Shown: positions 4,070 through 5,468 of the stretch, in pieces
How positions within the stretch are numbered: position 1 is the stretch's first letter
Layout of the letters: each line of letters begins with the position of its first letter
Assembly (NCBI GenBank): GCA_964016885.1
Contig: OZ024745.1
Span: 42,718,001-42,782,000 of the forward strand
Direction: 5' to 3'
DNA length: 64,000 nt
Origin: Eledone cirrhosa
Taxonomy: Eukaryota
Notes under the pieces: model-generated
What the model was told of the DNA's origin: nothing
Seen by the model: only the letters and a program-made list of their open reading frames with translations
The model's database searches: none
Program-made: the position numbers and the translations under genes

Positions 4070-4338
4070 ATCTAGGAGCAGTTTAGGTATGATACATTTT
4101 ATTACTAATTATATCTAAATGTTTCTTCTCTCTTCATAATGTATATATATATATATATATACACGTACATACATATACGTATACAGACGTACAGTAGTAT
4201 GTATATATATACATACACACACATATATATATATGTACGTATGGATTCACTGAACATTTATTATAATGCTCGGGGTGTTTGTAAACAAACATCCCGAATT
4301 AAGCCGTACAGTGCCCTTTTGTTCAACACTGACAAAGG

Positions 4339-4381
4339 AACGATGTACTAGTTCAAGCTTATTAGCTATCGTCAGCACCGT
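4339..4381 (-). ncRNA. HHR-A copy with one A deleted from GAAA (probably inactive)
   Basis: Minus strand reads acggtg-CTGACGA-tagct-aata-agctt-GAA-ctagta-catcgtt. Confidence 0.7.
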
Positions 4382-4856
4382 ATACCTTCCTGCCAGATAA
4401 ATGAACGTCTGAAAGTATATACTTTCCTTATGCATATTAACGGCTGAGTAGCCTAATTTGCATATCGACTGAATTAATCGGCCGGGCGCACCGAAAACGA
4501 TAAATGGAAAAAATGAAACGAAATTTCATTTCTCACTCTTAGTACGGCTGTTACTTAAATATAAGTATGTATACGTACATACATATATGTATACAGACGT
4601 ACAGTAGTATGTATATATATACATATATGCACACATATATATATGTACGTATGGATTCACTGAACATTTATTATAATGCTCGGTTTGTTTGTAACCAAAC
4701 ATCCCGAAATGAAATTTCGTTTCATTTTTTCCATTTATCGTTTTCGGTGCGCCCGGCCGATTAACTCACTCGATATGCAAATTAGGCTACTCAGCCATTA
4801 ATATGCATAAGGAAAGTATATACTTTCGAACGTTCAATCATCTGGCAGGAAGGTAT

Positions 4857-4899
4857 ACGGTGCTGACGATAGCTAATAAGCTTGAAACTAGTACAGCGT
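4857..4899 (+). ncRNA. HHR-A copy with intact core
   Basis: acggtg-CTGACGA-tagct-aata-agctt-GAAA-c-ta-GTA-cagcgt, with one mismatch in stem I. Confidence 0.8.
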
Positions 4900-5199
4900 T
4901 CCTTTGTCAGGGTTGAACAAATGAGCAACGATGGTTGCTAGACACTGCACGGCTTAATTCGGGATGTTTGTTTACAAACAAACCGAGCATTATAATAAAT
5001 GTTCAGTGAATCCATACGTACTTATATATATGTGTGCATATATGTGTATATATACATACTACTGTACTGTTAAACAATATTCGATGATTATGTCAAAGAA
5101 TGAGTTTTACAGTAGATTGGAAGCACTCAACGGTAAAAATAATTTTCAGGAGTTATTAATATAAGTATTAATAAAATAGATGTTCTTTTGATCAATTAC

Positions 5200-5251
5200 A
5201 TTTTATTATACATATTTCGGATGTACACAGTACGTCCTCATCAGACAAAAT
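5200..5251 (-). ncRNA. Second, distinct minimal type I hammerhead (HHR-B)
   Basis: Minus strand reads attttgt-CTGATGA-ggacgtac-tgt-gtacatcc-GAAA-t-atgt-ATA-ataaaat. Confidence 0.8.
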
Positions 5252-5423
5252 ATAATGAAATATGACATACCCTGAGATGTTAAATGGTTAAGATTTAAAT
5301 ATAAGTATGTATACGTACATACATATATGTGTACAGACGTACAGTAGTATGTATATATATACATACATCCGAAATATGTATAATAAAATGTTATTGATCA
5401 AAAGAACATCTATTTTATTAATA

Positions 5424-5468
<45 letters not shown>

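What the first reader, a model, noticed from the sequence alone, without database searches (positions are those of the whole stretch)
4139..5429. The same family is associated with a second, different hammerhead (HHR-B)
Seen: besides HHR-A at 4339-4381 and 4857-4899, the extra segment holds a hammerhead of different sequence at 5200-5251 (minus), with an AUA triplet and a G-C-closed stem II. Its homologue at 28295-28354 differs in ways that keep the structure: N7 U to C, a stem I G-U to A-U pair, and a longer stem II with a new loop. Inference: two ribozymes could define both ends of the element RNA, or HHR-B belongs to a partner element that co-inserts.
Basis: partly seen in the sequence, partly recalled or inferred. 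Interest (0 to 1): 0.75.

Follow-up and report, generated by a model that had tools for sequence, protein, structure and literature searches.

The report
Penelope hammerhead beside a retrozyme
The second ribozyme motif is real but ordinary: it is the end piece of a separate, known kind of jumping gene (a Hydra-clade Penelope-like element) that likely landed next to the first repeat because both insert at TA runs, so the two motifs are not the two ends of one element.

Summary
HHR-B (5195-5256, minus) is a real type I hammerhead motif with covarying helices, but it is not part of the HHR-A element. It is the terminal-repeat ribozyme of a Hydra-clade Penelope-like retroelement: 1,529 exact cores genome-wide, co-oriented behind an RT/GIY-YIG ORF in 16 of 20 ORF-anchored loci; two HHR-B copies about 4.1 kb apart bracket the unit. 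HHR-A belongs to an ORF-less ~426-nt retrozyme-type repeat (23,644 cores). The 28295 motif marks a sister Penelope family (1,216 cores). 42 of 60 HHR-B loci have no A within 10 kb. Close neighbours are enriched (5 of 60, 0.44 expected) but not per (TA)n tract (4 of 88 against 32 of 552), so shared targeting explains them. Here a typical two-armed B insertion abuts a trimmed A arm and holds a 65-nt A filler; both filler junctions are unique in the genome. Local DNA capture is likelier than one RT switching between both RNAs (about 20%). Cleavage and expression are untested. Known kind, new family. This scan reported similar Hydra and retrozyme cases on other DNA.

The parts
4146..4708 (-). Left arm of family A (retrozyme-type repeat), about 1.35 monomers, 3' end at the left (TA)n; holds HHR-A at 4340-4381, which lacks A15.1
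4706..5067 (+). Right, inverted arm of family A with HHR-A at 4857-4899; about 45 nt short of the usual 3' end
5068..5298 (-). Left arm of the Hydra-clade PLE family B: tail (5068-5158, about 15 nt short) and 5'-truncated pLTR (5159-5298)
5195..5256 (-). HHR-B, type I hammerhead motif; predicted cut between 5207 and 5206
   Evidence: cleavage untested
5299..5363 (-). 65-nt filler from the 3' end of family A at the B inversion junction; microhomologies TTAA and TACAT; 64 of 65 nt identical to the local copy at 4559-4623
   Evidence: junctions unique genome-wide
5364..5430 (+). Right arm of family B, from the 3' strand of helix II to the pLTR end
5426..5463 (.). (TA)19 tract, inferred target
28140..28232 (-). 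Inverted tail arm of the sister PLE family B2
28225..28410 (+). pLTR arm of family B2 with its hammerhead at 28295-28354
28453..28887 (-). Diverged A-type copy (HHR at 28779-28823), separated from B2 by the (TA)n at 28403-28449

Best explanation
HHR-B is the hammerhead motif in the terminal repeat (pLTR) of a Hydra-clade Penelope-like retroelement, separate from the ORF-less HHR-A repeat, and the two sit together here likely because both insert at (TA)n. Shown: the full unit is pLTR(HHR-B)-tail-ORF(RT, thumb, CxCX5C linker, GIY-YIG)-3'UTR-pLTR(HHR-B); most copies are short two-armed inverted ends in (TA)n, as here. Inferred: the endonuclease nicks the TA tract and the RT copies the RNA twice, giving two arms with 3' ends outward; B landed at the end of an existing A insertion, trimmed it, and the join between its arms was patched with 65 nt copied from the neighbouring A DNA. 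The two HHR-B copies would cut out a ~4.1-kb unit RNA, probably as a dimer through the near-palindromic helix III; because inserted ends lie about 50 or 150 nt past the predicted cut, the template would be uncut or re-ligated RNA. A likely borrows some Hydra-type enzyme, not necessarily B's.
For: HHR-B co-oriented behind the ORF in 16 of 20 ORF-anchored loci (1 partial, 3 without); an upstream pLTR plus tail before the ORF in 5 of 20. ORF model pLDDT 86, best folds RTs including TERT, E 7e-9. Motifs RWR, DKT, YRDD, CxCX5C, CxxC/CxH and no CCHH fit the Hydra clade as defined in PMC8557442; by eye co-linear with Hydra-1_Obim. Independence. Per-tract test 4 of 88 against 32 of 552, Fisher p 0.81. 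The window's B arms are canonical: one with tail, one without, 5' ends at the two common truncation zones. One other B locus (L025) holds a 30-nt filler that matches flanking DNA 1 kb away.
Against: No intact full ORF among the 20 loci examined (longest stop-free stretch 636 aa), so autonomy is inferred. Pfam does not hit the B ORF itself; the endonuclease model gave no significant fold match. Three A/B junctions here lack a (TA)n spacer, and the filler differs too little among A copies to prove a local source. Only 1 other locally matching filler was seen in 89 loci. Spacer-free A/B-type junctions also occur at L123 and L038.
Confidence: 0.8

Rival explanations
1. One insertion event: a Hydra-type RT held both RNAs and jumped between A and B templates, making the whole A(-)/A(+)/B(-)/A(-)/B(+) block between two (TA)n tracts. 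HHR-B is still a PLE pLTR ribozyme, but the locus records trans-mobilisation of A by B's enzyme.
For: No (TA)n at the three internal junctions, microhomologies at two; B-only insertions with internal restarts at a 3' end exist (L112, L115); A and B share the insertion anatomy and a 12-nt end motif.
Against: The shared end motif scores no better than shuffles (65 of 300); each family alone forms a canonical two-armed insertion here; the filler is the very piece missing from the adjacent A arm; junctions unique; no excess per TA tract.
Confidence: 0.2
2. A and B are two ribozymes of one element that define both ends of its RNA (first reader, option 1).
For: A-type and B-type motifs are neighbours at both window loci; A within 150 nt of B in 5 of 60 loci against 0.44 expected per base.
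Against: Opposite strands and different arrangement at the two loci; the second locus has another family; 15-fold different copy numbers; 42 of 60 B loci and 27 of 29 A loci lack the other; B's unit has HHR-B at both ends.
Confidence: 0.02
3. HHR-B has the motif but does not cleave in vivo; its helices are kept for another role, such as RT binding or pausing.
For: None of 89 arms begins within 2 nt of the predicted cut, and all 3' ends lie beyond it; PLE minimal hammerheads cleave weakly in vitro (PMC4209133); 8 of 9 Xenopus retrozyme dimers gave no product (bioRxiv 2026.07.22.740005).
Against: All core positions except N7 are invariant over 14 variants while helix II covaries, though the core was part of the search pattern; re-ligated circles would give the same footprint.
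Confidence: 0.2

Closest known systems
Hydra clade of C-terminal-endonuclease Penelope-like elements, including Hydra-1_Obim of Octopus bimaculoides (Craig et al. 2021, PMC8557442; passages, outline and supplement parts read)
   Same: Domain order, RWK-like, DKT and CxCX5C motifs, no CCHH, (TA)n targets, hammerhead near the 3' end, partial tandems, inverted 5'-truncated copies, tail at one end.
   Different: Another family: HHR-B differs from the published Hydra-1_Obim hammerhead; unit about 4.1 kb against under 3 kb, with a 1.4-1.8 kb 3'UTR; tail about 100 nt against the 30-40 bp described for Naiads; true pLTR tandems are present.
PLE hammerheads of metazoans (Cervera and de la Pena 2014, PMC4209133; parts 1-2 of 4 read)
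   Same: Type I motif in pLTRs, long helix II, small palindromic helix III, mostly solo truncated copies, opposite-strand pairs 100-700 bp apart.
   Different: No extra base between positions 9 and 10.1; position 10.1-11.1 varies (G-C, G-U, A-U) among sister families.
Metazoan non-LTR retrozymes (Cervera and de la Pena 2020, PMC7229834, passages; Li, Clavereau and Pollet, bioRxiv 10.64898/2026.07.22.740005, parts 1-3 of 5) - for family A only
   Same: ORF-less tandem monomers with one type I hammerhead each; a U.U pair at the base of helix II as in axolotl HHR_Amex2; proposed dependence on PLEs.
   Different: Monomer 422-432 nt; dispersed two-armed insertions in (TA)n; no parent pLTR found among the Hydra ends examined; circles not tested.

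Membership tests
Type I hammerhead (HHR-B) | CUGANGA, GAAA and NUH core with helices I-III | tested here: met
Type I hammerhead (HHR-B) | Covariation of helices | tested here: met
   5 of 7 helix II pairs and 2 of 2 loop III pairs change on both sides; helix I only one-sided; structure named by me, related sequences, no R-scape
Type I hammerhead (HHR-B) | Match to an Rfam hammerhead model | tested here: not met
   none among rows shown, (150 of 344; 132 of 132)
Type I hammerhead (HHR-B) | Self-cleavage at the predicted site | not testable with these tools
   bench assay needed
Hydra-clade PLE (family B) | RT related to TERT | tested here: met
   RVT_1 in 2 of 38 aligned homologues; no Pfam hit for B itself
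Hydra-clade PLE (family B) | C-terminal GIY-YIG endonuclease without CCHH, with CxxC and CxH | tested here: met
   motifs read; GIY-YIG in 4 of 38 homologues; fold search not significant
Hydra-clade PLE (family B) | RWK, DKT and CxCX5C motifs | tested here: met
   RWR, DKT, CNCRNKxNC; definition
Hydra-clade PLE (family B) | pLTRs with hammerhead, partial tandems, inverted copies, (TA)n targets | tested here: met
Hydra-clade PLE (family B) | Placement inside the clade on an RT tree | not tested
   published sequences compared by eye only
Hydra-clade PLE (family B) | One intact ORF (autonomy) | tested here: inconclusive
   none intact in 20 loci of 1,571 candidates
Non-LTR retrozyme (family A) | Short tandem monomers, one type I hammerhead each, no ORF | tested here: met
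   periods 422-432 nt, longest ATG ORF 58 aa; arrays
Non-LTR retrozyme (family A) | Linear and circular monomer RNAs | not testable with these tools
   no RNA data laid
Two-ribozyme A+B element | Fixed order and linkage of HHR-A and HHR-B | tested here: not met

The most novel reading that the evidence does not exclude
The locus is a frozen mixed-template insertion: one Hydra-clade RT switched between its own RNA and the retrozyme RNA in a single event, a direct genomic footprint naming the enzyme that mobilises a 23,000-copy animal retrozyme.
Probability: 0.2. Interest if true: 0.6.

Novelty: new member of a known kind. Interest (0 to 1): 0.25.

Why it matters
As it stands, little: one more Hydra-clade PLE family with its pLTR hammerhead, in a lineage where the clade is published. 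It corrects a tempting misreading: in genomes rich in (TA)n-targeting elements, unrelated hammerheads pile up side by side. The use is practical: a young, high-copy PLE and retrozyme pair with the same insertion anatomy is a good system to test the proposal that animal retrozymes ride on PLE enzymes, which the papers read support only by co-occurrence and pLTR homology.

Tried and rejected
Rfam scans gave only microsatellite-driven miRNA noise. Pfam on the B ORF and sequence searches of solved structures gave nothing useful. The endonuclease-side model was weak (pLDDT 63) and its fold search had no hit at E 0.001. One search used a structure string shifted by one column and was discarded; one search is the corrected count. 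No RNA holder was listed for the B element, so no reads were laid. No PLE protein remnant was found in the window. A simple DNA inversion of 5068-5363 was rejected because both breakpoints carry duplications. Homology between A and the B or B2 ends was no better than shuffles; the one score above shuffles lies in TA-rich sequence of the 3'UTR and was set aside. An A-type hammerhead was the first motif after a Hydra endonuclease in 1 of 55 cases, there behind a decayed B end. Literature searches: hammerhead+octopus+Penelope, retrozyme+hammerhead+Penelope (19), Penelope-like+hammerhead+minimal+palindrom (38), Penelope+retrozyme+cephalopod (80), octopus+hammerhead ribozyme (81); their listings showed no paper on these families or on mixed PLE/retrozyme junctions. 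The library lacks most subscription papers and Repbase, and the bioRxiv preprint's supplements were not seen.

Full report
Observation. The motif is there. A scan of the window found HHR-B at 5195-5256 (minus), its relative at 28295-28354 (plus) and A-type motifs at 956, 1440, 4340 and 28779; the copy at 4857 was read from the sequence and has a helix I mismatch. On 14 variants picked from the fetched loci (12 of its 14 representatives or their equivalents plus the two window copies; L091 and L092 left out) helix II and the palindromic loop III covary. Rfam models do not recognise it.

Setting. The window lies in a 3.0-Gb genome, octopus-like by inference from its repeats; no call named the species.

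Independence. Exact cores: B 1,529, A 23,644, the 28295 family B2 1,216, controls 0. Within 1.5 kb, 0 of 29 other top B loci hold the A core and 2 of 29 other top A loci hold a B-type end; 4 of 29 B2 loci hold A. In 60 B loci taken in order from the first 100 listed matches on contig C1, not chosen for A, 18 have A somewhere in 10 kb and 42 have none. A lies within 150 nt in 5 of 60 at 80% identity or more, against 0.44 expected per base (P 1e-4); but TA tracts flanking B have an A neighbour in 4 of 88 cases and other TA tracts in 32 of 552 (p 0.81). Most close pairs are separated by (TA)n. The excess is what shared targeting predicts.

What B is. L061 reads inverted B end, truncated RT-thumb-endonuclease ORF, 1.7 kb 3'UTR, HHR-B, (TA)n. 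Of 20 loci anchored on the RT, 16 have HHR-B co-oriented downstream, 1 partly, 3 not; 5 also have pLTR and tail upstream of the ORF, and in L180 the two HHR-B are about 4.1 kb apart. The protein folds as an RT close to TERT and other RTs and carries the Hydra-clade motifs of PMC8557442; it reads co-linear with Hydra-1_Obim, whose hammerhead differs. B2 and several other B-like motifs also follow Hydra endonuclease remnants (for B2 one locus, L191). No intact ORF was seen in these 20 loci.

What A is. ORF-less monomers of 422-432 nt in tandem and inverted arms, ending at (TA)n at two fixed points: a non-LTR retrozyme by structure (PMC7229834). Its use of PLE enzymes is inferred from anatomy and proposed for vertebrates in bioRxiv 2026.07.22.740005. 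No parent pLTR was found.

The locus. Top strand: (TA)n, A(-) 4146-4708, A(+) 4706-5067, B(-) 5068-5298, A(-) 5299-5363, B(+) 5364-5430, (TA)n. The B arms stop 93 and 18 nt before the predicted cut, both common zones: 37 of 89 arms end 93-117 nt upstream and 7 at 12-19 nt (loci were selected for one intact core, and very short arms are not counted). The filler is the A end missing from the adjacent arm plus about 25 duplicated bases, 64 of 65 identical to the local copy. Each filler junction has one exact match in the genome, this one; one spacer-short tail-to-tail A/B join exists elsewhere. Sequential insertion with local capture fits best (one parallel case in 89 loci); a single mixed-template event remains at about 20%.

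Mechanism. Shown: unit structure, targets, two arms, ends. Inferred: nicking of (TA)n, two rounds of reverse transcription, joining by microhomology; excision of the unit RNA by paired HHR-B, probably as dimers (PMC4209133); uncut or re-ligated templates, since the ends lie past the cut. Untested: cleavage, expression, circles.

Earlier notes of this scan, consulted after this reading was recorded, describe similar cases; they are not counted as support. One gave a lead, a tail hairpin, which I saw by eye in B, B2 and three sister tails but not in A.

Verdict. Real motif, known kind, new family; the two-ribozyme element is refuted. Interest 0.25.

Noticed in passing
L075-L134: 5' ends of B arms cluster 93-117 nt upstream of the predicted cut, at the 5' side of a predicted hairpin, and 12-19 nt upstream, in helix II; RNA structure or a start site may set truncation.
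   Followed up: partly
window 5068-5158; L038, L032, L088, L105 tails: Tails of B and sister families share an ACUC...GAGU bulged hairpin; A's tail has only the GAGUG part and a different hairpin.
   Followed up: partly
L052 1319-2068: An A array sits inside an old Hydra ORF, outside (TA)n, with an 11-12 bp target duplication.
   Followed up: no
L002-L134: Many other hammerhead families lie in the fetched loci, at least ten B-like helix II variants and several unrelated ones, including a second tandem repeat of about 465 nt.
   Followed up: partly
L011, L018, L020, L028, L090, L093, L125: A SINE-like piece (label recalled) is fixed in the 3'UTR of some B subfamilies.
   Followed up: no
window 689-1728: A two-armed A-type insertion of another subfamily (about 77% identical, period about 466 nt) with hammerheads at 956-1000 and 1440-1484.
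   Followed up: no
window 4857-4899: HHR-A resembles the published Hydra magnipapillata Penelope hammerheads (U.U below helix II, short palindromic helix III), a hint of Hydra-clade origin.
   Followed up: no
window 4776-4783: The A monomer holds an octamer-like motif ATGCAAAT (label recalled), a possible promoter element.
   Followed up: no
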